Positions 32,701 to 49,036 of a DNA stretch of 64,000 bases are shown here, in pieces. The notes under the pieces were generated by a model, which saw only the letters and a program-made list of their open reading frames with translations, had not been told where the DNA came from and made no database searches. The stretch's first letter is position 1. Every line of letters begins with the position of its first letter. The stretch covers positions 301,871-365,870 of the forward strand of contig JBMYRH010000003.1 of the NCBI GenBank assembly GCA_049602155.1, written 5' to 3'. The translations under genes were made by a program, and so were the position numbers. This DNA is from Myxococcota bacterium (GTDB lineage: Bacteria > Myxococcota_A > UBA9042 > PHBI01 > JBMYRH01).

Positions 32701-34322
32701 CAGTCGGGGTTCAAGAAGACCTCAACGTTGCCTTGACCGAGTTGGAGCGTGGCCGTCCCTTGGCAGATCGCGCTCGGAGGCGGGATGTCGAGGCTGAGGT
32801 TGACCGCTGTGAGCAGGTCACCGGAGCCGCACGCCGATGCTGAGGTGTCGCCGAAGGACACCTCTCCGGTGCACGAGGAGATCTCAAGGTTGCAACCCGG
32901 TGGAGAAGAGGTGACCCGGATCCAGCTCTCGTGGACGTCCGTCTGAGCTGCGAAGTCCGTGACGGTCACGACGACCTTGTACTCTCCTTCGGGGAAGCTC
33001 GCCGTGTCGATTGCACCCTCCGTCTCCTCCTCTTCGTCTCTCCAGGTCTCGGGCAGGCAGTCGGCGTCGGGGCGCGCTCGGAGGTTCGCGAGGTTGTAGA
33101 CGTGCGGGGAGGTCTTCGTGACCGGCGGCTCGAAGGGGTTGTAGAGCAGATCGCTCCCGATATCGGATTCTCCAGAGCCATCGAGCCGTGCGTTCGCTTC
33201 CGCCAAGCAGTAGGGCCCGGCCTGATAGGGGGTCGCGAGCATCGGGTGGATGTAGTCGCTCACCGTGGGCGATGGCGGGGGCGCAAGGGGATCGAGGCCA
33301 AAGATCTCGACGTCGATCTGCTTGATCGCCCTCGTCGGATCTGCTGCCGCATCAACCGCCTCGCATGTGACCACCGGCGGGGCGGTCTCCGTCCCTCCGT
33401 CCGCGTCACAGCGCGGCGGACCCACGTCGCGAACGCCGACGGTAATGTCGAAGAGGGCCGGATCTCCAGGGACGCTCGCCGTCGGCACGACGACCGCGGG
33501 CACCGAGGTCCCGCCAATGTTGACCGTCTGGATCCCAAGGGCGTTGTTACCGCTCATGCTGCCGTGAGCATACATGGTGACCTGGGTGATCTGGGGCGGC
33601 GTTGTATCCCCATCCAGCGCCTGAACCGGGGCGCTCTGAGGCGCCAACCCGAGGTTCAGGTAGATCATCGGGTCGAGGTAGTATCCCTTAGGATCGAGGA
33701 CAGTGATGGTGATGCGCCCTCGAGGGCCCAGCGAGGCCGCGCCGATCCCTCGGGGTTTGCCCAGCACGTCGCCCATACGCACCACGTAGGCCTCGGGCTC
33801 CTCTTGGCTGTACTTGATGAACTTCTCTGAGAAGATCTGCGCGTCGCCTACCTCGGCCTCCGATGGGTTCAGCGGGTCATCGGCCTCCTCCGCCAAGTAG
33901 AGGGCCTTGACCGCCTTTCGGACCTCACTGGCCTGCAACCCGCCGATGAGCACGTATTGAGGGACGGCTTTGACCTCCTCAATCTCGTTGATTTGGTCCT
34001 TTTTAGGCTTCAGTGTCACCCGCACAGTGCCGTAGCCCTGGGCTTGGTCGCACCACACACCGGGGGGGCACCACTCCATGATGCCGTCCACTGGCGAGGA
34101 GATCGGGATCTCCTTCGAGATCCACATGCGCACGCCGGTGCTCATGTGGACCTGCTCATCGTCGTCTTCGTACAGCTGGCCGAAGTAACGCTCTAGGTAG
34201 AATCCGCCGTTGGCGTTCAGGTCAAAGGCAGTGGGGACCAAGAAGGGCTTCTTGCAGCCGGCCGCAAAGAGGCCAAGGGCTGCGACGATCAGGAGTGCTG
34301 CGACGAGGCGAATACGGGTCAT
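29799..34322 (-). CDS. Giant lipoprotein E (~1507 aa), beta-rich, paralogous core to protein A
   Basis: ATG 34322 forms an ATGA overlap with the D stop; the track lists a GTG at 34331. It gives MTRIRLVAALLIVAALGLFAAGC (lipobox). Gly/Ser/Thr/Val-rich repeats. Ends ...VTSFGVNVNHSFSHTF. Confidence 0.85.
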   Translation of the reverse strand: MTRIRLVAALLIVAALGLFAAGCKKPFLVPTAFDLNANGGFYLERYFGQLYEDDDEQVHMSTGVRMWISKEIPISSPVDGIMEWCPPGVWCDQAQGYGTVRVTLKPKKDQINEIEEVKAVPQYVLIGGLQASEVRKAVKALYLAEEADDPLNPSEAEVGDAQIFSEKFIKYSQEEPEAYVVRMGDVLGKPRGIGAASLGPRGRITITVLDPKGYYLDPMIYLNLGLAPQSAPVQALDGDTTPPQITQVTMYAHGSMSGNNALGIQTVNIGGTSVPAVVVPTASVPGDPALFDITVGVRDVGPPRCDADGGTETAPPVVTCEAVDAAADPTRAIKQIDVEIFGLDPLAPPPSPTVSDYIHPMLATPYQAGPYCLAEANARLDGSGESDIGSDLLYNPFEPPVTKTSPHVYNLANLRARPDADCLPETWRDEEEETEGAIDTASFPEGEYKVVVTVTDFAAQTDVHESWIRVTSSPPGCNLEISSCTGEVSFGDTSASACGSGDLLTAVNLSLDIPPPSAICQGTATLQLGQGNVEVFLNPDCTGPITLPYQWDLAAGEVVPSQVFLRAGLDGATTAPVEFQEIVLQFGYTNGATCAASANTVLQGGSNSGPADYEGGCCTENGSPGCETEGIAACVCAIDSACCTGNWTEDCIALADNSCNANCPAIDSECGNGVCEINENPSMCPGDCQGSDDINDPVAGFESCLDLLTPSAFAISNSTLVPFSVDWTSGGVAFTGQDDQGLCSYEYVPPSLEIKTETLFVKTMDLSQVTLAWKEQAPVAGSGGSQEFASAVVTWEGEQAVGTFGVVEGKVTEVTLALNNQGQLSGIVDFEVATTADANLGTNAILRHGLYGTFSFAFGGDTDWTGNWNFGGIEGIHIDLVRGTDVLASATGVLQPTGVLEATLVQAAPITFTTFGVTAQICDLSVGFNYNIANSQLDFLSGGGALSTSGFAGLDGSIDLVLDFAPTQVTVGLGLGLGCSCCATGASTIEVVGMEISNLSLTGVFSYDFDLISLVGTASAQHPDFDTAIEGVVVKLEDLPGATGLGISEFSMASFTTGFQGFELSVTNASYITAGSELTFSAKLVIPPLGQFTIINFKCNDAGLISIQKITGALTQAPLTGTFQASYEDNGTTSRFTGYINNLSIAGLVTVGASIDVGTALSGSSPFTFIYLQIVAAGLPLPFVKKFAAAGGYNYGMDGIAGCPPDPGQVCLPFGGGGGSGETLAAPGYPSLGNYIVGLGIGLGDPAGIIGFDLYVQVQFGSGPTLLSGAAGISIPQVDPWISGTVFINNYELGGDSMAGGISTNVEIPRGDPWFFELNGTVLYESDEGGWSVETPTPIVANLFWGFLEVQGTFNFSSQVSTNPAVLENSFNGHISGSIEVGGSVTFRYPSGFNSATCSTAQATSNSLGLGAGGGIGMSIGGSLGANFDNDGMSGGSFGVHASFNGNVKVKWPCPFGCSSCFSYLSVSASASFQASQTSTNRLRVAGSAYFVTSFGVNVNHSFSHTF

Positions 34323-37300
34323 TGTAGACACCCCCCAGGCGGGCCTTCATCGAACTGAGGCGCGCAGAAATCGCACACATCATCGCAGCAGTCACCAAAG
34401 TCAAAGCAGCCAGGATCGCAAGCACAATTGCCAGCGTATCCGCCGCACTGCCCTGCGCAAGAGCCGTCGATTACGCAGACCCCATTGGGGCTGCACTGCT
34501 CGCCGTCACCGCACAACCCACAGGTGCCGCCACAACCATCAGGCCCGCAGGCGCTGTCCGGCGCGCAGCTGGGTTCACACACCGGGCACTGCCCGTTGGT
34601 ACACTGTCCACCGTCAGCGCAGGTCCCACAAGAGCCCCCGCAGCCATTGGGTCCACACTGCTTACCGTCGCAGTCAGGCTCACACCCCCCCGCGCACCCG
34701 TTGGGCGGCGCCTCCAAGAAGAGGTCTCCGCATGCGTCACAGATGTCATCGCAGCAGTTCCCAAGGGCGAAGCAGAAAGCGTCGCAGGCGCAGGTCTGAG
34801 CGCTCGCGCCGCAGAGCCCCCCGCAGGAGTCAGCCGCCAAGCACTCTCCAAAGGGTGAGCAATCCTGCCCAGCCTCGCACGCGCCACAGCTGCCACCACA
34901 GCCATCATCGCCGCAGGCCTTGTCCGCGCAGTCGGGGACACACGCACCGCACACGCCAGCATGACAGACCGCGCCATCGGCACAGGACCCGCACGTTCCC
35001 CCGCAGCCATCCGAACCACAGCCCTTGCCGTCGCAGTCGGGGACACACGCTCCACAGAGCCCCTGAGCGGCGAGCCCTGGGCAAGCATCGCAAGCGTCGT
35101 CACAACAGTCACCAGTCTCAAAACACTCACCGTCGCAGAAGCAGCCACCGGGCGCAGCGCCACCACAGTAGCCGGCGCAGCTCGTCGCGTTCGTACACTG
35201 ACCGGATGGCCCGCACGCCTCCCCGTCGGCGCACACACCGCAGGTGCCTCCGCAGCCATCCGGACCACAGCTCACGCCCTCGCAGGCCGGTTGGCAGACC
35301 TCACATTGCCCAGCCGCTGTGCAATTTTCACCCTCCGCGCAGGTCCCACAGGTCTCCGCGCAACCGTCCGATCCGCACACCTTGCCTTCGCAGCTCGGCT
35401 CACACAGCCCGCAGGCGACCTGACCGGGCAGACTCAAGATGGGACCACAGGTCTCACACACGTCGGCGCAACAATCGCCGTTATCGAAGCAGCTGGAGTC
35501 GCAATAGCACTGACCCGGCGAACCGGAGCATTGCCCAGCGCAGGAAGCCGGGTCGGTGCACGCACCGAGCAAACAGTAGAGCCCATCATCACAGGCGCCG
35601 CAGCTCCCTCCACATCCATCAGAGCCACACGCTTTGCCCTCGCAGACGGGCGTGCAGAGGACGCAAGCCCCTGCGGCACAATAGTCGCCGACCTCACACT
35701 CCCCGCACTGACCGCCGCAGCCATCTGGGCCGCAGGCCTTACCCTCACACGAGGGGACGCACGGCGCACACGCACCCTCATCGTCACACACCTCACCAGC
35801 GTCGCAGGAGCCACACGCGCCACCACACCCATCGGGGCCGCAGAGCTTACCGTCGCAGCTCGGCTCGCACGGCGCGCAGCCCTCCGGCGCGGGGCCATCA
35901 AAGGCCCCTGAGCATGCATCGCAGAAGTCCGCACAGCAGTCCCCAAAGAGGACGCAATCCGCGTCGCACACGCAGTCACCGCCGACGTCACCGCAGCGGT
36001 CCACACACGAGCCCGACGAGACACATTGGAGGGAGAGCCCGCACACCTCACCTTCACCGCACGCACCGCAGCTGCCTCCGCAGCCATCTGGGCCGCAGGA
36101 GGCGCCTTCGCACGAGGGCACACACACGGTGCACGCCCCGTCATCGCAGGTCTGGCCCTCGGCGCAGTCGCCGCAGCTCCCGCCACAGCCGTCATCACCG
36201 CACACCGCGGCACCACAGTCCGGGACACAGGGTTGCCCGCAACCAACAGGCGTCGGCTCGGGGTAGACATCGACACACACGTCGCAGAGGTCGTCACAGC
36301 AGTCGCCCGTGATTTGACACGTGATCGAGCACGAGCAGCCGCCAGCGTCCAAGGAGCCGCACTTTCCAACGCAGGAGCCCGAAGCCATGCAGAGCCCATC
36401 CGCGGTGCAGAGGACCCCTTCGGCACACGCGCCACAGGTTCCGCCGCAGCCGTCGTCTCCGCATGCTTTGCCGTCGCAGCTCGGCTCGCATGCATCGCAC
36501 TTGTCCCCCGACACAGAGCACTGTTGGCCTGCCGGGCAGAGGCCGCAGAGCGTCCCGCAGCCATCATCACCGCACACTTTCCCGTCGCAAGCCGGTTGGC
36601 AGAGCGTGCAGCTCACTGGCGCATCATCTCCGCACACCGGGCAGACATCCGGACAGCACGTGCCCTTAGTCGCGCAGTCTGGGTCGCAGTCGCAGAGGGC
36701 CCCTAAGGTCCCACAGCGGTTCACGCATGAGGAGGGATTCACGCACTGCCCCTCAAGGTCGCAATAGGTCGAGTCGTCACAGGCGCCGCAGCTGCCGCCG
36801 CACCCGTCGTCACCACAGGTCTTGCCGTCGCAGCTCGCGACGCAACCTTCGCAGGCAAAGGCCGGCGAACAGGTGGTGCCCTCCGCGCACTCGCCACAGG
36901 TGCCGCCGCACCCATCGTCACCGCACGCCTTATCCGCACAGTCGGGCGTGCAATCGCAGCCAGCGATCACCACGCCGACGCAACCATCTGGCGTGCAGGC
37001 ATCGTCTGAGGTGCACGGGTCATCATCGTCGCAGGTGCTCCCGGCCTCGGCCGAGACCTCGGCACACGCTCCGTCCGCGCAGATGGCCACCATGCACGGC
37101 CCGGAGAGCTCAAAGTCGACGCACTCCTCATCAGAGACGCACCCACTCACGTCGAGGGCCGATGCATCTCCGGTCGCATCGGTCGTATCGAGCGCCGGGC
37201 CAACGTCGGCGTCTTCTGCGTCGGATGGGGCGTCGGGGACATCAGGCTCTGGCGCGACATCCTCAGCGTCCTCGGGGGGCGTCACCACATCGGCAGTGTC

Positions 37301-37564
37301 ATCAACCGGGGGCACGTCCGTGGTGTCTTCAGGGGGGGCGACGACGGCGTCATTGACGTCAAGCTCCGGGACAAGCGCGTCAGAGGCGTCAGCCTCTGGC
37401 GTGATGTCCGCCGACACAGCGGTGTCCTCAGGTGCCTCGGTGTCCGTCGGCAGTGGCGAGTCCTCGGGACCACACGCAGCTAGACAGGCGCAAAGAAGCA
37501 CCATCCGGAAGGTCACCGAGCGCTCCAAACAGGAGACACGCCTTTGATCGTCAATTGCCCGCAT
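34319..37564 (-). CDS. Hyper-Cys-rich repeat lipoprotein D (1081 aa)
   Basis: Lipoprotein signal MVLLCACLAACG; an alternative start at ATG 37504 is possible. Acidic Pro/Asp/Glu linker. By my count, 15 C..C.GK.CG.DGCGG.CG.C modules are interleaved with 7 SC.G.CG....C.CD..C...GDCC.D.C..C modules. Confidence 0.85.
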   Translation of the reverse strand: MRAIDDQRRVSCLERSVTFRMVLLCACLAACGPEDSPLPTDTEAPEDTAVSADITPEADASDALVPELDVNDAVVAPPEDTTDVPPVDDTADVVTPPEDAEDVAPEPDVPDAPSDAEDADVGPALDTTDATGDASALDVSGCVSDEECVDFELSGPCMVAICADGACAEVSAEAGSTCDDDDPCTSDDACTPDGCVGVVIAGCDCTPDCADKACGDDGCGGTCGECAEGTTCSPAFACEGCVASCDGKTCGDDGCGGSCGACDDSTYCDLEGQCVNPSSCVNRCGTLGALCDCDPDCATKGTCCPDVCPVCGDDAPVSCTLCQPACDGKVCGDDGCGTLCGLCPAGQQCSVSGDKCDACEPSCDGKACGDDGCGGTCGACAEGVLCTADGLCMASGSCVGKCGSLDAGGCSCSITCQITGDCCDDLCDVCVDVYPEPTPVGCGQPCVPDCGAAVCGDDGCGGSCGDCAEGQTCDDGACTVCVPSCEGASCGPDGCGGSCGACGEGEVCGLSLQCVSSGSCVDRCGDVGGDCVCDADCVLFGDCCADFCDACSGAFDGPAPEGCAPCEPSCDGKLCGPDGCGGACGSCDAGEVCDDEGACAPCVPSCEGKACGPDGCGGQCGECEVGDYCAAGACVLCTPVCEGKACGSDGCGGSCGACDDGLYCLLGACTDPASCAGQCSGSPGQCYCDSSCFDNGDCCADVCETCGPILSLPGQVACGLCEPSCEGKVCGSDGCAETCGTCAEGENCTAAGQCEVCQPACEGVSCGPDGCGGTCGVCADGEACGPSGQCTNATSCAGYCGGAAPGGCFCDGECFETGDCCDDACDACPGLAAQGLCGACVPDCDGKGCGSDGCGGTCGSCADGAVCHAGVCGACVPDCADKACGDDGCGGSCGACEAGQDCSPFGECLAADSCGGLCGASAQTCACDAFCFALGNCCDDICDACGDLFLEAPPNGCAGGCEPDCDGKQCGPNGCGGSCGTCADGGQCTNGQCPVCEPSCAPDSACGPDGCGGTCGLCGDGEQCSPNGVCVIDGSCAGQCGGYAGNCACDPGCFDFGDCCDDVCDFCAPQFDEGPPGGCLQ

Positions 37565-43857: not shown

Positions 43858-46800
43858 CTAGGGGATCTCGCCGTCGAGGCAGTCGCCCCCGTCCCAAAGC
43901 AGCTCATCACAGGCAAACACCGCATCGCAGCTGTTGTCGCCGTACCACGTGTTTGGTGTGCAACCGCCGAAGCAATTGGCCGTCTGATCCTGTGCGCAGG
44001 TGCCATTCGAGGGGCAATCGCCGTCATCCCAAGAGAGCTCGATGCACTGAAACTGAATGTCGCACCATGAATCGCCCAGCCACCCAGCCGGCCGACACAC
44101 CTGCTTGCAGTCTTTGATTTGCCCCTCTGGGCAGCAGTCACCACCGTCCCACTCGCCGTCTTCGCAGGCGAAGGTGGGATCACACAGGCCGTCACCCATC
44201 GAGGCCTCGGCGCAGACCCCTTCGCAGTTCGTCGCTTGACCCTCTGGGCATGGGATCGGGCAGTCGCCAGCGTCCCAATTAAGGGCCTCGCAGGCGAAGG
44301 CTGGATCGCAGAAGCCGTTGCCCAGGCCTACGAACTTGCAGACGCCAGCGCAGTCTTTGATCTGCCCCATCGGGCAGCAATCTCCCCCGTCCCAAGAGTT
44401 CTGCCAGCACGCCAGGACAGACTGGCAGGTGCCGTCACCCAACCACGCTTCAGGTTGGCAAGTCCCATCACAGCCCTTGACCGTCCCATCACCGCAACAG
44501 TCGCCACCATCCCAGTCCGTCTCCGCGCAGTTCATCGAGCTGCTGCAAGACCCGTTGCCGAGCTCAGAGGCCGCTGTGCAGATGCCCTGGCAGCTCTTCA
44601 CGTAGCCATCGGGGCAACAGTCGAAGTTGTCGTAGCTCATCGTCACGCATTGCAGCTCCGGCTGGCAGATCCCGTCACCGAGAAGCGCCTGATCGATGCA
44701 GTTAAAGTCGCAGTCCACGATCTCTCCTGGCGCGCACTCCACGATCGGTGAACAGTCTCCGGCGTCCCAAGCGAGCGCTTCGCACTGGAGCTGCGGCTGG
44801 CAGAGGCCGTCCCCAAGCCACCAACTCCAGGAGCACGTCCCATCGCAGTCCGTGATCTCGAAGGCTGTACAGCAGTCGCCACCGTCCCACGCGTGAGAGA
44901 GGCAACGGAGCGCCTCGTCACACTGACCATCTCCCACCGACGATGAAGGCTGGCAGCCGCCTACGCAGTCCGCGACCTCTCCGGGCGGGCAGACGACGAG
45001 GGCCTCGCAGTCGCCAGAGTCCCACCCAAAGGTCTCGCATTGAAACTCGGGATCACAGAAACCATCACCCAACCAAGTCGGCCAAGCGCAACCACCGTCG
45101 CATGTCTTGATCTCCCCTGTCGGGCAGCAATCCAGCCCATCCCAACCCGTATCTAAGCAGGCCAAAGTAGCTTGGCAGGTGCCATCGCCCAGCCACGTCG
45201 CCGGGAGGCAGCCCCCGACGCAATCGGCCACCTCATCTTCTGCGCACTCAGCGACGACGGGGCAATCGCCCTCATCCCAATTCGTCGCCGAGCAGGCCAG
45301 GGACTGGTCGCAGGTGCCGTCGCCGAGCCAGCTGAGCCATACGCAGCCGCCCTGGCAGTTGGCGACCTGAAGGTCGGTGCAGCAATCGCCGCCGTCCCAG
45401 ACCGTCTCCTCGCATTGCAGGGGTGCGTCACAGATCCCGTTGCCGAGCGCCGATGAGGCGACACAGCCCCCCAAGCAGTCTGGGGTCTCCCCATTGGGGC
45501 ACACCACCACAGGCTCACAGTCACCGCCATCCCAGCCCGTCAACTCGCAGGCGAGCACGGGATCACAGAGGCCATCGCCGAACCAGGTCTCAAAAGAGCA
45601 CTCTCCGAGACAATCGGGGGCTTTACCGGTCGGGCAGCAGTCTTCACCATCCCAATCGGTCTCCTCACACCTCAAGCTCTCGTCGCACACCCCGTCACCC
45701 AGCGATGATGCAGGCTGGCACCCTCCCAAACAGTCAGGAGTTTCTCCGAGGCCGCACTCGACCACCGGCGCGCAGTCGCCATTGTCCCACCCCAGCTCCT
45801 CGCACGCGAAGACATCGTCGCAGCTGCCGTTGCCCAACCAGCCAGCCCATGAGCACGCCCCAAGGCAGTTCGGTGTGAGGCCGTCCGCGCACTGCGTCGG
45901 GGCGCAATCACCGCCGTCCCAGCTGGTCGCTTCACAGTCCAGTTCAAAGTCGCAGAAGCCGTTGCCGTAGACCTCGGCGGGCAGGCAGGTCGCCGCACAG
46001 CTGGGCGTCTGACCGGGAGGACAGAAGACGCCTGGGCAATCCCCGCCATCCCAGTTCAATGCATCACACGCGAAGGGCTCATCACACTCACCGTCACCGT
46101 ACCAACTTTGCCAACTGCACGTCTCCATGCAGTCGAGCTGTTGCCCGTCTGGGCACACAGGCGCGTCGATACAATCGCCCTCGTCAAAGCCCTGGGCTTC
46201 ACAGTTGAGCGCCTCATCACACTGACCATCCCCAAGGGCGGCCACAGCGGTGCATCCACCGAGGCAATCCAAGACCTCTGTGGCCGGGGCGCACACTGGA
46301 CCAGGAGGCTGACAGTCCCCGTTATCCCAGTCGGTCGCCTCGCAATCGAAGAGCGGGTCACAAAAACCGTCCCCCAACCAGTTCTCCTGCGTACACCCGT
46401 CTGCACAGTTCGGAGCTTGCCCGATCGGGCAGCCAATCACGCCGCAATCCCCGCCATCGAGGCCAAAGGGGATGCAATCAAAATTGCTGTCACAGACGCC
46501 GTCACCCACCTTCGCGAGGTCCCCACACACCCCTGTGCAGTCGTAGAGGAAGCCCACGGGGCAGTCACCGGCGATGCAATCGCCGCCATCCTCTTGGTAA
46601 GCGGGACAGTTAAACGCGTCATCACAGCTGCCGTTACCGATTAACCCCTCTGGCAGGCACTCCCCCACGCAGCTCGGGACTTCCCCAGGGGGGCAGCAGT
46701 CACCTGAATCATAGCCGCTTTCTTTACAGTTCAGCTCGGGGTGACATTCGCCATCACCATTGAGCACTGCGGCGATGCACTCCCCTTCGCAGTCCAGGAT

Positions 46801-48033
46801 CTGCCCCGGCAAGCACTCCCCGGTGACGCAGTCGCTGCCGTCGTAGTCCCAAAGCCCGCAGTTCAACGACGCGTCGCATTGACCATCGCCGAGCGCCCCC
46901 TCCGGTGTGCAGCCGTCGAGACAATCCACCAGGTCACCATCCGGGCATGGGTCAACGACACAGTCACCGCCATCCCAGTTGAAGGCCTCGCAGTTCAGCG
47001 CTTCGTCACACGTGCCGTCGTTCACGAGCGCCGCCAATACACAGCTGCCGTCACAGGCCAAGAGCTCGGCGGGCGCGCACGCCGAGCAGTCGCCTCCATC
47101 AAAGCTGAGCTCTGGGCAGTTTAATGCGGGGTCGCAAACCCCGTCTCCGTAGGACAGCGAGGGCGTGCATCCGCCAATGCAGTCAGACATCTCGTTCATG
47201 GGGCACCCTGCCGCGCATAGCCCATCTGCACCACAGGTGGTGCCGACGCCGCAGGTCCCGCAGCTGCCGCCACATCCATCGTCGCCGCACGCTTTGTCGT
47301 CACATTGCGGTGTGCAGGCTGTGGGATCGACACAGACCCCGTCTTCAGAGCACATGAACCCCACGCCACAGACACCACAGCTGCCACCGCACCCGTCGTC
47401 ACCGCACGCTTTATTCGCGCAGTCCGGGGTGCACACCGAGGGGTCAACGCACTGCCCCTCTAGAGAACAGGTCAGCCCGATGCCGCACACCCCGCAGCTG
47501 ACGCCGCACCCATTATCACCACACTCGCGGGTGTCACAGACACCACAACAAGGGTCATCGGCCGGTGGCGTGTGGATACAGCCGTCAGTGCCACAGGTGT
47601 CCACGGTGCAGGCATCGCCGTCGTCACAATTCTTTGCAAAGCCGCCAACGCACACGCCTCCTTGGCATGCCTCTCCGTCCAAACACGGCGCGCTATCACA
47701 AGGCGAACCGTCCTCTGCAAAGGCAACCTCGCAGACCCCAAGGGTGCACACGACCTGCTCACATGTCCCCGCGATCAGCCCCGCGCAGTCGGCGTCTTCT
47801 TGGCACTCCGGCTCTGCTGCTTGGTCGAGGGTGTCCCCGGGCGTCGCCGTGCTGCCCGCGTCTGCGCGCGCGACCTCGCTGGTCTGAGTCCAACCGGGCT
47901 GCGGAGCGGGCGGCACGCTGCTCGTGGTGTCACCAGACAGGTCACCACCGGTGCACGCGCTCGCGAAGAGCGCGGCCGCCATCAAGAAGAAGGTAAGACA
48001 AGCGCGACGGATGAGATCCCCCTGGGTGATCAA
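43858..48033 (-). CDS. Giant Cys-rich lipoprotein with 26 tandem LNR (Lin-12/Notch repeat)-like modules
   Basis: The stop is firm; the start is uncertain. The track ORF reaches 48291, but 48034-48291 is low-GC and not protein-like. TTG 48033 gives (M)ITQGDLIRRACLTFFLMAAALFASAC; ATG 47982 is also possible. N-terminal region has CG.(D/N)GCG.SCG.C modules, followed by the LNR-like array. Confidence 0.8.
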   Translation of the reverse strand: MITQGDLIRRACLTFFLMAAALFASACTGGDLSGDTTSSVPPAPQPGWTQTSEVARADAGSTATPGDTLDQAAEPECQEDADCAGLIAGTCEQVVCTLGVCEVAFAEDGSPCDSAPCLDGEACQGGVCVGGFAKNCDDGDACTVDTCGTDGCIHTPPADDPCCGVCDTRECGDNGCGVSCGVCGIGLTCSLEGQCVDPSVCTPDCANKACGDDGCGGSCGVCGVGFMCSEDGVCVDPTACTPQCDDKACGDDGCGGSCGTCGVGTTCGADGLCAAGCPMNEMSDCIGGCTPSLSYGDGVCDPALNCPELSFDGGDCSACAPAELLACDGSCVLAALVNDGTCDEALNCEAFNWDGGDCVVDPCPDGDLVDCLDGCTPEGALGDGQCDASLNCGLWDYDGSDCVTGECLPGQILDCEGECIAAVLNGDGECHPELNCKESGYDSGDCCPPGEVPSCVGECLPEGLIGNGSCDDAFNCPAYQEDGGDCIAGDCPVGFLYDCTGVCGDLAKVGDGVCDSNFDCIPFGLDGGDCGVIGCPIGQAPNCADGCTQENWLGDGFCDPLFDCEATDWDNGDCQPPGPVCAPATEVLDCLGGCTAVAALGDGQCDEALNCEAQGFDEGDCIDAPVCPDGQQLDCMETCSWQSWYGDGECDEPFACDALNWDGGDCPGVFCPPGQTPSCAATCLPAEVYGNGFCDFELDCEATSWDGGDCAPTQCADGLTPNCLGACSWAGWLGNGSCDDVFACEELGWDNGDCAPVVECGLGETPDCLGGCQPASSLGDGVCDESLRCEETDWDGEDCCPTGKAPDCLGECSFETWFGDGLCDPVLACELTGWDGGDCEPVVVCPNGETPDCLGGCVASSALGNGICDAPLQCEETVWDGGDCCTDLQVANCQGGCVWLSWLGDGTCDQSLACSATNWDEGDCPVVAECAEDEVADCVGGCLPATWLGDGTCQATLACLDTGWDGLDCCPTGEIKTCDGGCAWPTWLGDGFCDPEFQCETFGWDSGDCEALVVCPPGEVADCVGGCQPSSSVGDGQCDEALRCLSHAWDGGDCCTAFEITDCDGTCSWSWWLGDGLCQPQLQCEALAWDAGDCSPIVECAPGEIVDCDFNCIDQALLGDGICQPELQCVTMSYDNFDCCPDGYVKSCQGICTAASELGNGSCSSSMNCAETDWDGGDCCGDGTVKGCDGTCQPEAWLGDGTCQSVLACWQNSWDGGDCCPMGQIKDCAGVCKFVGLGNGFCDPAFACEALNWDAGDCPIPCPEGQATNCEGVCAEASMGDGLCDPTFACEDGEWDGGDCCPEGQIKDCKQVCRPAGWLGDSWCDIQFQCIELSWDDGDCPSNGTCAQDQTANCFGGCTPNTWYGDNSCDAVFACDELLWDGGDCLDGEIP
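43879..47205 (-). repeat. Array of 26 tandem ~40-47-aa coding repeats (LNR-like)
   Basis: Each unit has the form C(P).G....C.G.C......G(D/N)G.C(D)....C.....(W/Y/F)D.GDC, e.g. CLGGCTAVAALGDGQCDEALNCEAQGFDEGDC. Counted from the translation (residues 363-1471 of the track ORF). Confidence 0.9.
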
Positions 48034-48319
48034 GGGCGCTCGAACGTCTCTCAACGCCAGCTCAAGCCGGCAGTGAAATGATGGTGCCCTCTTAGCCGGA
48101 TACGACAGAGCGACGGGTAGAATCAAGTCTCGGTCCAAACCGAGGCCATCAAAGGGGTCGGTAAAACCTCCCCAATGCGGCGGCTCAAGGTCACCAAGTG
48201 AAAGGCTCGACTGGACAAACCCACGACAACGAGCGACACTTAAGTGATTAGAATTATAACCAAATCGCGACAAAGCCGAACCAAGGGACACACAGATAAG
48301 GACTCAGAGGCTGCTCTTT

Positions 48320-49036
48320 GTGGGGCTCCTCAGCACATCGCTCCTCGCCTGTGGTGGCGAAGGGACCGCTGACAACGACGCGTCGCTTCAAGACGTCACG
48401 GCGTCGACCGACGCATCGAGCGAAGACACCCAAGCCCCAAGTGATGTCGTGACAGAGGGCGACGCGGCCCAGGCTCACGACGCTCAGGCCGAAGACGACA
48501 CAGAGCAACCCGAGGAGTCCGGGTGCCGAAGCGCCGACGATTGCCCGTTAGACAGTAACTTTGAGAGCTACTGCGCGACCCCTTATGACGACACTCATGT
48601 CTGTGGCATCCCTGCTGCTTACCCTGATTACCCCTGCGAAGAGCTCTGCCCAGGTGTGGGTGGGCCATTCGACGGGGAATTCCCCGGGGGCAGCGAGTGT
48701 CACGCGGTCATGTCGAATTGCTCGGCCAATGGAATCGGGGGTTACTGCGCAGATCCTTCGGAGGACGCGGTCTTCAACACGCCATGCGGAGGCTCCGAAC
48801 CCGGGGACGAGTTGACCTGGAACGAGGAGGGCGTCCGTGTGCCGCAGAGCTGTGAGGATGGCTACGCGTGTCACGCGGTCCAGAGCTGTGAGCCCAGCGC
48901 AGCGCATAGCGACCTGCACGGCTGCGCATTCGCGCTCTGCGAGGCCGACTCAGACTGTGAGGAGGGGCTCTTTTGCGTCAACGGTCAATGCATCGACACC
49001 TTGGGGACGTGCGCACTGAATACGCCTAGTCCCTAA
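48320..49036 (+). CDS. Cys-rich hypothetical lipoprotein
   Basis: GTG start. GLLSTSLLACGG lipobox, acidic linker, then 20+ Cys. Divergent from the LNR gene. Confidence 0.55.
   Translation: MGLLSTSLLACGGEGTADNDASLQDVTASTDASSEDTQAPSDVVTEGDAAQAHDAQAEDDTEQPEESGCRSADDCPLDSNFESYCATPYDDTHVCGIPAAYPDYPCEELCPGVGGPFDGEFPGGSECHAVMSNCSANGIGGYCADPSEDAVFNTPCGGSEPGDELTWNEEGVRVPQSCEDGYACHAVQSCEPSAAHSDLHGCAFALCEADSDCEEGLFCVNGQCIDTLGTCALNTPSP

What the first reader, a model, noticed from the sequence alone, without database searches (positions are those of the whole stretch)
43879..47205. 26 tandem Lin-12/Notch-repeat (LNR)-like modules in a single bacterial lipoprotein
By my count, residues 363-1471 of the track ORF form 26 consecutive ~40-47-aa units. 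Each has the form C.G.C......G(D/N)G.C(D)....C.....WD(G)GDC. Examples are CLGGCTAVAALGDGQCDEALNCEAQGFDEGDC and CLGGCQPASSLGDGVCDESLRCEETDWDGEDC. The Cys spacing, the GDG.CD element and the terminal WDGGDC closely mirror the metazoan Notch/PAPP-A LNR consensus C...C......G...C...CN...C.WDGGDC. That consensus forms a Ca2+-binding, three-disulfide module. To my knowledge, LNR modules are rare outside eukaryotes and normally occur in sets of three. An array of 26 would be exceptional. The DNA copies are diverged, so this is not a recent amplification or an assembly artefact.
Basis: partly seen in the sequence, partly recalled or inferred. Interest (0 to 1): 0.75.

Follow-up and report, generated by a model that had tools for sequence, protein, structure and literature searches.

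The report
Bacterial protein with 26 Notch-type repeats
A probable cell-surface lipoprotein of an uncultured, probably myxobacterial, organism is three-quarters made of 26 back-to-back copies of a small calcium-binding, disulfide-knotted module; this module is a previously unannotated bacterial cousin of the Lin-12/Notch repeat, which is known mainly from animal Notch receptors.

Summary
Residues 363-1471 of the 1477-aa ORF (43858-48291, minus strand) are 26 uninterrupted units of 39-47 aa, each with exactly six Cys and ending in WDGGDC.

The LNR reading holds for the C-terminal ~25 residues of each unit:
- The array alone hits dozens of PF00066-annotated proteins (E down to 7e-30).
- hhalign against PF00066-positive modules gives 97.4% probability.
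- AlphaFold models (pLDDT 93-94) superpose on Notch1 LNRs at 0.6-1.0 Å.
- The three acidic positions aligned with LNR are invariant; that they bind Ca2+ is assigned from memory.

It is not a canonical LNR. Notch Cys4 and Cys5 are absent, one shifted Cys replaces them, and an N-terminal hairpin adds another Cys. Pfam scores sit at or below threshold, and the whole-protein scan returns nothing.

The subtype is rare: about 1,000 of 1.84 billion protein clusters, mostly in Myxococcota MAGs, and unnamed in Pfam and NCBIfam. Twenty-six is the largest count found but not an outlier. Bacterial relatives have 25 units, and diatom proteins have 21-25 four-Cys LNRs.

Most likely it is a Ca2+-stiffened, highly acidic, beads-on-a-string surface stalk or multivalent binder. 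That function is inferred. This is a new variant of a known kind and of moderate interest.

The parts
43858..48291 (-). Longest ORF, 1477 aa, encoding the whole protein. No frameshift or internal stop.
   Evidence: Homologs at E down to 2e-125 show it is a real gene.
47953..48033 (-). Probable true start (TTG, codon 87) and lipoprotein signal peptide MITQGDLIRRACLTFFLMAAALFASA|C. Lipobox LFASAC, with the lipidated Cys at residue 113.
   Evidence: Start candidates are listed. The sequence shows an RR n-region, a hydrophobic core and A-S-A-C. Homologs P0001, P0004, P0020 and P0123 have similar L-x-A/G-C lipoboxes. No signal-peptide predictor was available, so this is inferred.
47815..47952 (-). 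Low-complexity Ser/Thr/Pro/Asp-rich tether (residues 114-159) following the lipid anchor.
   Evidence: Sequence.
47206..47814 (-). N-terminal Cys-rich region (residues 160-362; 38 Cys). It has one Dicty_CTDC-like 'NCDDGDACTVDTC' element and three 'C.P.C..KACGDDGCGGSCG.CG.G..C' repeats, shared with hundreds of Myxococcota proteins.
   Evidence: It accounts for the many short, high-identity hits. No Pfam or NCBIfam match.
43879..47205 (-). Uninterrupted array of 26 LNR-like six-Cys modules (residues 363-1471; 156 Cys; 212 Asp+Glu against 13 Lys+Arg).
45637..45771 (-). Unit 12 (residues 841-885, APVVECGLGETPDCLGGCQPASSLGDGVCDESLRCEETDWDGEDC). This is the unit modelled alone; units 12-14 (window 45382-45771) were modelled together.
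   Evidence: AlphaFold2 pLDDT 94.1 and 92.8. Secondary structure: beta-hairpin at residues 10-12 and 18-20, short 3-10 turns, and a helix at residues 36-43 after the fifth Cys.
43858..43878 (-). C-terminal tail LDGEIP plus stop codon. There is no C-terminal domain, sorting signal or anchor after the last module.

Best explanation
The gene encodes a secreted, lipid-anchored, extremely acidic protein. The mature form is about 1365 aa and 139 kDa, with computed pI about 4, 255 Asp+Glu against 18 Lys+Arg, and 194 Cys available for 97 disulfides. The organism is uncultured and probably belongs to Myxococcota.

The C-terminal 75% of the protein is a head-to-tail string of 26 small modules that belong to the Lin-12/Notch-repeat (LNR) superfamily but form a distinct bacterial subtype. 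Each module has two parts.
(a) An LNR core: ...LGDGxCD-x4-C-x4-WDGGDC. It retains the D/N of GDG and both Asp of WDGGDC, which I assign as the Ca2+ ligands from my recollection of the Notch1 LNR-A NMR structure.
(b) An N-terminal beta-hairpin extension: C-x7-C-x3-C.

The two Cys that pair across the middle of a Notch LNR (C4 and C5) are missing. One shifted Cys and the extra N-terminal Cys take their place.

The predicted, untested disulfide map is C1-C3, C2-C5, C4-C6. That is the connectivity of LDL-receptor class A modules placed on an LNR-type core. It would explain why Foldseek returns both LDL-A and Notch LNR structures.

Mechanistic inference: after Sec export, lipidation and oxidative folding in the periplasm, each module would bind one Ca2+. 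The array would then form a rigid beads-on-a-string rod, tens of nanometres long, projecting from the envelope. It would act as a spacer and/or a multivalent Ca2+-dependent binding surface, as LNRs do in PAPP-A and GlcNAc-1-phosphotransferase.

Shown here: the repeat anatomy, homology to PF00066 members, a confident fold prediction, and the rarity and distribution of the subtype.
Inferred: lipidation and localisation, Ca2+ binding, disulfide connectivity, rod-like behaviour, and biological role.
For: Anatomy.

Homology to LNR:
- PF00066 is the only credible Pfam hit for pieces of the array (22.0 bits against GA 21.2 for units 1-3; 10.6-19.9 bits for the other pieces).
- phmmer of units 1-3 against PDB hits the Notch2 NRR at E=4.5e-4, then Notch3 and GNPTAB.
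- The 109-unit profile hits the two Notch repeats of human GlcNAc-1-phosphotransferase at E=6.3e-5 over 35 of 41 positions.
- The unit profile hits P0213 and P0223 at E=1e-21 and 3e-20 in 1.84e9 proteins. Both are PF00066 at E=1.6e-45 and 2.5e-40.
- The array alone hits about 50 PF00066-annotated proteins, including a Chaetoceros protein that UniRef names 'LNR domain-containing protein'.
- hhalign of the unit against PF00066-positive modules gives 97.4% and E=1.5e-11. Against LDL-A modules from the same protein family it gives only 20% over 14 columns.

Structure:
- AlphaFold2 pLDDT is 92.8 for three units and 94.1 for one unit.
- Foldseek superposes the C-terminal 23-25 residues on Notch1 NRR at 0.6 Å (3i08) and 1.0 Å (3l95), on PAPP-A at 1.4 Å, and on the LNR-A NMR structure at 2.4 Å over 30 residues.

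Putative Ca2+ ligand positions: D/N in 26 of 26 units, D in 26 of 26, D in 26 of 26.

Tolerance of variable Cys number in accepted LNRs: PAPP-A LNRs have one or two disulfides yet keep the fold and the Ca2+ ligands (PMC9579167).

Extracellular, modular nature: the partner domains in relatives are LDL-A, MopE metal-binding motifs, Somatomedin-B, Dicty_CTDC, lamin-tail domain, peptidase M23, TIG and beta-propellers.

Acidity and Cys parity.
Against: - The whole-protein Pfam scan returns nothing. Single units are below the PF00066 gathering score, and only profile positions ~11-36 align.
- Two of the six canonical LNR Cys are not conserved.
- Single-unit Foldseek matches are not statistically significant (best E=0.25). 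The top-ranked full-length matches are LDL-A modules (TM about 0.5, rmsd 3.7-4.6 Å), and the three-unit model ranks LDL-A arrays (E=1e-4) ahead of Notch NRRs (E=5e-3).
- AlphaFold was trained on Notch structures, so the sub-angstrom fit of the conserved motif is not fully independent of the sequence similarity.
- Nothing in the gene neighbourhood points to a specific function.
- The distal end of the protein has no recognisable head domain.
Confidence: 0.68

Rival explanations
1. The units are LDL-receptor class A (LA) type modules, or an independent convergent Ca2+-binding disulfide knot. On this reading the WDGGDC / GDGxCD resemblance to LNR is convergence on a Ca2+ cage rather than common ancestry.
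For: - Foldseek ranks LA arrays (megalin, VLDLR) first for the three-unit model (E=1e-4 to 6e-4).
- LA modules are the only structures that align over the whole ~42-residue unit.
- The 3+3 distribution of Cys, and the C4-x5-C5-x9-C6 spacing, match LA spacing (read directly from the sequence against the LA consensus as I recall it).
- Genuine LA modules sit next to these units in P0003, P0012, P0123 and P0127.
Against: - No PF00057 hit for any piece, even at E<=10, while PF00066 is hit repeatedly.
- hhalign against LA modules from the same proteins gives 20% probability over 14 columns, against 97.4% for LNR modules.
- The array hits about 50 PF00066 proteins by plain phmmer, and in the one carrier with only PF00057 precomputed (P0298) the aligned stretch was not inspected.
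- The LA acidic cage motif (D-x-S-D-E) is absent.
- Full-length fits to LA are loose (3.7-4.6 Å), whereas the C-terminal half fits Notch at 0.6-1.0 Å.
Confidence: 0.1
2. The module identity is the same, but the role differs. The array is not mainly a stalk; it is the functional part itself. It could be a multivalent, Ca2+-dependent binding surface for a protein or glycan partner (prey cell surface, matrix, or self-recognition), by analogy with LNR exosites in PAPP-A and substrate-binding Notch repeats in GlcNAc-1-phosphotransferase.
For: - There is no head domain distal to the array.
- Surface positions between the conserved Cys and Asp are highly variable between units (45% mean protein identity), as expected if units present different binding faces.
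- LNRs in PAPP-A interact with substrate or inhibitor (PMC9579167, PMC11925022).
- In relatives the module accompanies enzymes and binding domains rather than always forming long rods.
Against: - No partner can be named from the context.
- The extreme net negative charge would limit protein partners to basic or Ca2+-bridged ones.
- Variability between units is equally expected from neutral drift in a spacer.
Confidence: 0.3
3. The protein is mainly a polyanionic Ca2+ reservoir or buffer, or a mineral-interacting coat, at the cell surface. The modules would serve to hold many Ca2+ ions.
For: The mature protein has 255 acidic against 18 basic residues and a computed pI of about 4, and 26 predicted Ca2+ sites.
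Against: One structural Ca2+ per ~43 residues is a poor store. Tightly bound structural Ca2+ in LNRs is not readily exchangeable (established knowledge of Notch LNRs). There is no supporting genomic context.
Confidence: 0.07
4. The array is an assembly artefact or a decaying pseudogene.
For: Repetitive genes are prone to mis-assembly in metagenomes. No identical protein was found in the 5.8e9-sequence collection.
Against: - Copies share at most 67% DNA identity, so they cannot be collapsed or mis-joined by an assembler.
- The 4.4-kb frame is intact.
- All 156 array Cys and all putative Ca2+ ligand positions are preserved, which indicates strong purifying selection.
Confidence: 0.02

Closest known systems
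Lin-12/Notch repeats of Notch receptors (Pfam PF00066; structures 1pb5, 3eto, 3i08, 2oo4)
   Same: About 35-45-aa extracellular module. It shares the C-terminal signature (G)D/N-G-x-C-D ... C ... W-D-G-G-D-C, with the same Asp/Asn positions that I recall as the Ca2+ ligands. The predicted backbone of the last ~24 residues superposes at 0.6-1.0 Å. Four of six Cys are positionally equivalent.
   Different: - Notch C4 and C5 are absent. One Cys lies three residues upstream of C5, and there is an added N-terminal Cys plus a beta-hairpin, so the disulfide connectivity must differ.
- Notch has three LNRs that wrap and autoinhibit the heterodimerisation domain. Here there are 26 in a row with no such domain.
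- The host is a bacterium and the protein is lipid-anchored.
Notch-type repeats of GlcNAc-1-phosphotransferase alpha/beta (GNPTAB; 7s05, Drosophila 7dxi)
   Same: Best sequence match among solved structures (E=6.3e-5 with the 109-unit profile). The alignment spans 35 of 41 positions, including the N-terminal C-x3-C spacing and the 'sW(l/i)xDGxCD' stretch.
   Different: GNPTAB keeps canonical LNR C4 and C5. It has two repeats embedded in a eukaryotic Golgi enzyme, where they help recognise lysosomal hydrolases.
PAPP-A / PAPP-A2 LNR modules
   Same: They show that accepted LNRs tolerate altered Cys number (one or two disulfides) while keeping the fold and Ca2+ ligands (PMC9579167). They act as Ca2+-dependent interaction sites. 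Foldseek fit is 1.4 Å over 25 residues.
   Different: Three dispersed modules in a metazoan metalloprotease. Fewer Cys, not an alternative set of six.
Uncharacterised PF00066 arrays of diatoms and other plankton (e.g. P0286 and P0293 from Chaetoceros, P0213, P0281)
   Same: Long tandem arrays (12-25 units) of LNR-family modules. They are directly detectable from the bacterial array by phmmer (E=7e-30 to 1e-16).
   Different: Four-Cys units (C-x~10-GDGxC-x~9-C-x6-C) that pass Pfam thresholds strongly. Eukaryotic. Units are separated by short 'xEFNxxYPxC' linkers. No N-terminal hairpin Cys pair.
Myxococcota multi-module proteins P0001, P0002, P0004, P0014 (lamin-tail-domain proteins) and P0003, P0012 (LDL-A-containing)
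   Same: They carry the same six-Cys bacterial module (33-36% identity over 42-76% of the query), up to 25 units by the same HMM. They have a lipoprotein-type N-terminus and a similar N-terminal Cys-rich head.
   Different: Their units are interleaved with CGDGxC...CPxDC modules, helical Cys-rich inserts or LDL-A modules, and they end in a lamin-tail domain. The window protein is a pure, uninterrupted array with no terminal domain.
LDL-receptor class A modules (PF00057)
   Same: About 40 aa, six Cys distributed 3+3, an N-terminal hairpin plus a C-terminal Ca2+ cage, often in long tandem arrays. Top Foldseek hits for the whole unit. The predicted C1-C3/C2-C5/C4-C6 connectivity would be identical.
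   Different: No sequence-profile relationship. The acidic cage motif differs (DxSDE against WDGGDC). The structural fit is loose (about 4 Å).

Membership tests
LNR domain (Pfam PF00066 / Lin-12-Notch repeat) | Score at or above the Pfam gathering threshold (21.2 bits) | tested here: inconclusive
   Whole protein: no hit at E<=10, probably lost to the compositional-bias filter. Units 1-3: 22.0 bits, just above threshold. Other pieces: 10.6-19.9 bits, below it. Only profile positions ~4/11-36 are matched.
LNR domain (Pfam PF00066 / Lin-12-Notch repeat) | Statistically significant sequence homology to accepted family members | tested here: met
   - The array hits about 50 proteins with precomputed PF00066 at E=7e-30 to 1e-4.
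- The unit profile hits P0213 and P0223 (PF00066 at E=1e-45 and 1e-40) at E=1e-21 and 3e-20.
- hhalign gives 97.4% and E=1.5e-11.
- The profile hits GNPTAB Notch repeats at E=6.3e-5 and the Notch2 NRR at E=4.5e-4.
LNR domain (Pfam PF00066 / Lin-12-Notch repeat) | Conserved Ca2+-coordinating Asp/Asn positions (D/N before the third Cys; both Asp of W-D-G-G-D-C) | tested here: met
   Column counts over 26 units: D20/N6, D26, D26. The Asp after that Cys is present in 20 of 26 units. The positions align with those of Notch2, Notch3 and GNPTAB. The identity of the ligands themselves comes from my knowledge of the Notch1 LNR-A NMR structure and from PMC9579167.
LNR domain (Pfam PF00066 / Lin-12-Notch repeat) | Canonical six-Cys framework of Notch LNRs (three disulfides; C1-C5, C2-C4, C3-C6 as I recall from the Notch1 literature) | tested here: not met
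   Ungapped alignments put Leu/Phe/Ala at LNR C4 and a non-Cys residue at LNR C5. The unit's fifth Cys lies three residues upstream of LNR C5, and its first Cys has no LNR counterpart. This feature is not universal in the family: PAPP-A LNRs have one or two disulfides (PMC9579167), and diatom PF00066 units have four Cys.
LNR domain (Pfam PF00066 / Lin-12-Notch repeat) | LNR fold | tested here: inconclusive
   The C-terminal 23-30 residues of the confident model fit Notch1, PAPP-A and LNR-A at 0.6-2.4 Å, but Foldseek E-values are 1.3-2.4, which is not significant for a 45-residue query. The N-terminal hairpin has no LNR counterpart. The three-unit model hits Notch NRRs at E=5e-3.
LNR domain (Pfam PF00066 / Lin-12-Notch repeat) | Ca2+ binding and Ca2+-dependent folding; actual disulfide connectivity | not testable with these tools
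   Model coordinates are not exposed. Correlated Cys loss is uninformative because 183 of 195 units keep all six Cys. This needs biochemistry.
LDL-receptor class A module (PF00057) | Match to the PF00057 profile or to LA modules by profile-profile comparison | tested here: not met
   No PF00057 hit for any piece at E<=10. hhalign against 14 LA modules from P0003, P0012 and P0123 gives 20% probability over 14 columns.
LDL-receptor class A module (PF00057) | Acidic Ca2+ cage motif C-D-G-x-x-D-C-x-D-x-S-D-E | tested here: not met
   The unit consensus is C-D-x-x-L-x-C-x4-W-D-G-G-D-C. Genuine LA modules in relatives do show the motif.
LDL-receptor class A module (PF00057) | LA fold | tested here: inconclusive
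   LA modules give the top Foldseek hits: E=1e-4 for three units, and TM about 0.5 with rmsd 3.7-4.6 Å over 40-43 columns for one unit (E>=0.25).
Named bacterial Cys-rich repeats (NCBIfam/TIGRFAM models such as the Myxococcus cysteine-rich repeat; CysRRep of the 2026 preprint) | Match to a curated model or to the published Cys spacing | tested here: not met
   NCBIfam: no credible hit for the whole protein or for a single unit. CysRRep spacing is Cx6-9Cx5-7Cx8-11Cx7-8CC (bioRxiv 10.64898/2026.06.07.730663), which differs from Cx7Cx3Cx9-11Cx5Cx9C.

The most novel reading that the evidence does not exclude
The six-Cys bacterial module is an ancient prokaryotic branch, possibly the source, of the LNR superfamily. 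The Ca2+-binding core that animals later used to gate Notch would then have existed first as a building block of bacterial surface proteins, or been exchanged between bacteria and marine protists. In long arrays such as this one it would act as a Ca2+-dependent, force-bearing or force-sensing tether, not as inert filler.
Probability: 0.15. Interest if true: 0.7.

Novelty: new variant of a known kind. Interest (0 to 1): 0.45.

Why it matters
Recent papers in the field state that LNR modules are known only from Notch receptors and PAPP-A/PAPP-A2 (PMC9579167, PMC11925022). This locus shows a distinct bacterial subtype of the same Ca2+-binding core, with a re-wired Cys framework, in about a thousand mostly uncultured-bacterial protein clusters. 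It also shows that standard annotation misses the subtype: a whole-protein Pfam scan returns nothing.

What it offers:
(i) a natural experiment on which parts of the LNR are essential, namely the Ca2+ cage and the C3-C6 bond, as opposed to the other two disulfides;
(ii) material for dating and rooting the LNR family, which bears on how the Notch negative regulatory region was assembled;
(iii) a simple, pure 26-module protein for studying the Ca2+-dependent mechanics of LNR strings.

It does not reveal a new mechanism or system, and the biological role remains inferred.

Tried and rejected
- Whole-protein Pfam scan: zero hits. This was misleading, because pieces do hit PF00066.
- NCBIfam: nothing credible.
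- Word-indexed search with the 40-aa unit profile: only 52 candidates and 2 hits, so uninformative.
With the whole protein it used exact peptides and found only 4 loci, so it is not a taxonomic survey.
- Inferring disulfide pairs from correlated Cys loss: 183 of 195 units keep all six Cys, so there is no signal.
- Reading disulfides from the AlphaFold model: coordinates are not exposed.
- Container alignment of 92 full-length hits, to get domain-partner statistics in one Pfam call: the tool failed. Replaced by a 10-protein sample.
- TRF on the DNA: no array found, because the copies are too diverged.
- Identifying the source organism by exact look-up of the neighbouring M20 peptidase: only a 2.4-kb Logan contig from SRR27204701, with no taxonomy.
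- Literature: three searches found no description of bacterial LNR-like repeats. The 2026 'CysRRep' preprint describes a different Cys spacing.
- LDL-A identity: considered and rejected on profile evidence.
- Two-unit super-repeat: units 12-20 alternate between 45 and 40 aa, but DNA identity is only marginally higher at even offsets (0.56-0.58 against 0.52-0.54). This is suggestive, not established.

Full report
**1. What is there**

The window carries one long ORF on the minus strand, 43858..48291, of 1477 codons. Residues 363-1471 map exactly to the reported 47205..43879. They split into 26 consecutive units of 39-47 aa with nothing in between. Only six residues (LDGEIP) follow the last unit.

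Every unit has exactly six Cys with the spacing C-x7-C-x3-C-x9-11-C-x5-C-x9-C. In the 26-row alignment, five Cys and the two Asp of the terminal W-D-G-G-D-C are invariant. The first Cys and the two Gly of G-D-G are conserved in at least 90% of rows. The residue between those Gly is Asp in 20 units and Asn in 6.

The copies are old. Mean pairwise identity is 45% for protein and 53% for DNA, with a DNA maximum of 67%. TRF sees no tandem array. A seed-and-extend search recovers 17 in-register copies at 60-72% identity, spaced 117-135 nt or multiples of that. Assembly collapse or recent amplification is therefore excluded. The preservation of all 156 Cys points to purifying selection. The module occurs nowhere else in the window.

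**2. The rest of the protein**

The longest ORF starts at a GTG. A TTG at codon 87 gives MITQGDLIRRACLTFFLMAAALFASAC, which has a basic n-region, a hydrophobic core and an A-S-A-C lipobox. Relatives have comparable lipoboxes. I therefore take Cys113 as the lipidated first residue of the mature protein. No predictor was available, so this is an inference.

After Cys113 come three segments:
- a Ser/Thr/Pro/Asp-rich tether;
- a Cys-rich region with three 'KACGDDGCGGSCGxCG' repeats that are common in Myxococcota proteins, and which explain most of the 858 hits of the first homology search;
- the array.

The mature protein is about 139 kDa with a computed pI of about 4. It has 255 Asp+Glu against 18 Lys+Arg. 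It has 194 Cys after the lipidated one, an even number that is compatible with 97 disulfides.

**3. Is the unit an LNR?**

*Sequence evidence.*
- A whole-protein Pfam scan gives nothing. Pieces of one to three units hit PF00066 (LNR) and nothing else credible: 22.0 bits for units 1-3 (gathering score 21.2) and 10.6-19.9 bits for four other pieces. The hits always cover only the C-terminal two-thirds of the profile.
- NCBIfam has no model for the unit.
- phmmer of units 1-3 against PDB sequences finds the Notch2 NRR (E=4.5e-4), then Notch3 and GlcNAc-1-phosphotransferase.
- A 109-unit profile finds the two Notch repeats of GlcNAc-1-phosphotransferase at E=6.3e-5 over 35 of 41 positions.

*The strongest evidence is transitive and direct homology to accepted family members.*
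- The unit profile, run exhaustively over 1.84 billion representatives, hits P0213 and P0223 at E=1e-21 and 3e-20. Pfam scores these two at 1.6e-45 and 2.5e-40 for PF00066.
- The array alone, by plain phmmer, hits about 50 proteins that carry precomputed PF00066, at E from 7e-30 to 1e-4. One is a Chaetoceros tenuissimus protein that UniRef calls 'LNR domain-containing protein'.
- hhalign of the 26-unit alignment against PF00066-positive modules gives 97.4% probability and E=1.5e-11 over 26 columns. Against genuine LDL-A modules taken from the unit's own relatives it gives 20% over 14 columns.
- Unit by unit, 24 of 26 beat all 1,040 composition-matched shuffles against the LNR HMM.

*Structural evidence.* AlphaFold2 with alignments of paralogous and homologous units gives confident models: pLDDT 92.8 for units 12-14 and 94.1 for unit 12. 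Each unit has a small beta-hairpin (just before the second Cys and at the third), short 3-10 turns, and a helix after the fifth Cys.
- Foldseek with three units ranks LDL-A arrays first (E=1e-4) and Notch NRRs next (E=5e-3).
- With one unit nothing is significant, as expected for 45 residues, but the matches are informative. Notch1 NRR fits at 0.6 Å over 23 residues (3i08) and 1.0 Å over 24 (3l95). PAPP-A fits at 1.4 Å over 25, and the LNR-A NMR structure at 2.4 Å over 30.
- LDL-A modules align over the whole unit, but only at 3.7-4.6 Å.

I read this as an LNR core with an N-terminal hairpin that gives the whole unit an LDL-A-like outline. One caveat applies: AlphaFold has seen Notch structures, so the tight fit of the conserved motif is not independent of the sequence similarity.

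**4. Where it departs from the family**

Alignments to Notch2, Notch3 and GNPTAB show that the unit's second, third, fourth and sixth Cys correspond to LNR C1, C2, C3 and C6. LNR C4 and C5 are not Cys here. The unit's fifth Cys lies three residues upstream of the LNR C5 position, and its first Cys lies in the N-terminal extension. The Notch connectivity, as I recall it from the Notch1 literature, is C1-C5, C2-C4, C3-C6. PMC3145759 confirms three disulfides per module. That connectivity cannot hold here.

The most economical re-wiring keeps LNR C3-C6 (our C4-C6). It keeps an equivalent of LNR C1-C5 (our C2-C5). It replaces LNR C2-C4 with a bond from our C3 to the new C1. The result is the LDL-A pattern C1-C3, C2-C5, C4-C6.

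This is an inference.

Variation in Cys number is already accepted within the family. PAPP-A LNRs have one or two disulfides yet keep the fold and the Ca2+ ligands (PMC9579167). The diatom PF00066 units have four Cys. I therefore file the unit as a new subtype within the LNR superfamily, not as a canonical LNR.

**5. How common is it, and is 26 exceptional?**

The exhaustive profile search finds 1,026 representative clusters at E<=1e-3, 302 at E<=1e-10 and 49 at E<=1e-30, out of 1.84 billion. The subtype is rare.

Carriers that have names are mostly Myxococcota MAGs. Related units also occur in:
- Neomarinimicrobiota MAGs, including a 3144-aa protein that holds both six-Cys and four-Cys units;
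- a Desulfosarcina MAG;
- Flavobacteriales beta-propeller proteins.

No identical or orthologous protein was found; the best hit has 35% identity.

Counted with one HMM, the window protein has 26 units, P0001 and P0002 have 25 and P0123 has 19. In those relatives the units are interleaved with other Cys-rich modules. The window protein has the longest uninterrupted array seen. With the four-Cys LNR HMM, plankton proteins reach 25 (P0286, Chaetoceros), 23 and 21 units. P0257 is from the green alga Prasinococcus.

Relative to the characterised proteins, which have three LNRs in Notch and PAPP-A and two in GNPTAB, 26 is extraordinary. Relative to what already sits unannotated in databases, it is the top of a continuous range.

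**6. Context and likely function**

The gene is flanked by a convergent SAM-methyltransferase gene and a divergent small Cys-rich lipoprotein gene. Further out lie a GT2/epimerase fusion, a polysaccharide deacetylase and an M20 peptidase. None forms an obvious functional unit with it.

About 35 kb of the window encodes other giant secreted proteins with Ca2+-binding EGF, MopE, FG-GAP, fn3 and Somatomedin-B-like modules. This is a typical myxobacterial repertoire. GC content of the gene matches the window.

In relatives the module accompanies LDL-A, MopE, Somatomedin-B, Dicty_CTDC, lamin-tail, M23 peptidase, TIG and beta-propeller domains. It is therefore a promiscuous extracellular building block.

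Known LNRs are Ca2+-stabilised interaction modules (PMC9579167, PMC11925022, PMC2770060). My best account is a lipid-anchored protein, folded by the periplasmic disulfide machinery, with one Ca2+ per module. It would form a stiff, very acidic rod tens of nanometres long that acts as a spacer and/or a multivalent Ca2+-dependent binding surface. Whether it is mainly a stalk or mainly a binder cannot be decided here. The lack of any distal head domain leans slightly towards the array itself being the functional surface.

**7. Verdict**

Novelty: a new variant of a known kind, namely an unannotated bacterial six-Cys LNR subtype that standard whole-protein Pfam scanning misses.

Interest is moderate (0.45). 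The finding contradicts statements in the recent literature that LNRs are confined to Notch and PAPP-A, and it offers a handle on LNR evolution and mechanics. It does not uncover a new mechanism, and the function remains inferred.

Noticed in passing
window 34319-37564 (-): A 1081-aa lipoprotein-like ORF with 204 Cys (18.7%). About 20 'C.P.C.GK.CG.DGCGG.CG.C' repeats, the same type as residues 250-362 of the target, alternate with 'SC..RCG....C.CD..C...GDCC.D.C..C' modules that Pfam scores as Somatomedin_B (24.0 bits against GA 23.1). This is another animal-type disulfide module in a bacterial protein.
   Followed up: partly
window 10356-39995: A run of giant secreted multi-module proteins:
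- 2316 aa with EGF_CA/cEGF/EGF_3;
- 1232 aa with no Pfam hit;
- 2109 aa with MopE metal-binding motifs plus FG-GAP;
- 761 aa with fn3;
- 1510 aa with no Pfam hit;
- 705 aa with FG-GAP/ASPIC-UnbV.
Roughly half the window encodes proteins with 'eukaryote-like' extracellular modules.
   Followed up: partly
window 48320-49036 (+): A 238-aa Cys-rich (20 Cys) protein with an LLAC lipobox, transcribed divergently from the target. It has no Pfam family, and its function and any link to the target are unknown.
   Followed up: no
window 43858-48291 (-) and relatives P0001-P0004: Annotation blind spot. hmmscan of the whole protein against Pfam returns nothing even at E<=10, while 1-3-unit pieces hit PF00066. 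The bacterial relatives likewise carry no PF00066 in precomputed Pfam. HMMER's compositional-bias filter probably discards Cys/Asp/Gly-rich arrays.
   Followed up: partly
L002 526-9960 (+) (Neomarinimicrobiota MAG MED764): A 3144-aa protein whose C-terminus I read as a T9SS-type sorting domain (not checked with any tool). It contains both six-Cys bacterial-type units (e.g. CDYYGSAGVIDCDLNCSAQSWLGNGGCSLSLNCEVLDWDGEDC) and four-Cys Notch/diatom-type units (e.g. CGGTLSWISDGYCDSSNNNADCAYDGGDC). It is a possible bridge between the subtypes.
   Followed up: no
proteins P0286, P0281, P0304, P0340, P0293: Diatom (Chaetoceros) and other plankton proteins carry 16-25 tandem four-Cys PF00066 LNR modules. 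Some other plankton proteins fuse the modules to trypsin domains (P0175, P0302, P0305). Long LNR arrays in protists appear not to be discussed in the literature I searched, which describes LNRs as confined to Notch and PAPP-A.
   Followed up: partly
window 45382-46099 (units ~12-20 of the array): Units alternate strictly between a 45-aa form with an 'xPVVxC' linker and a 40-aa form that abuts the previous unit as 'DCC'. DNA identity is slightly higher at even offsets (0.56-0.58 against 0.52-0.54). This hints at ancient expansion by two-unit blocks.
   Followed up: partly
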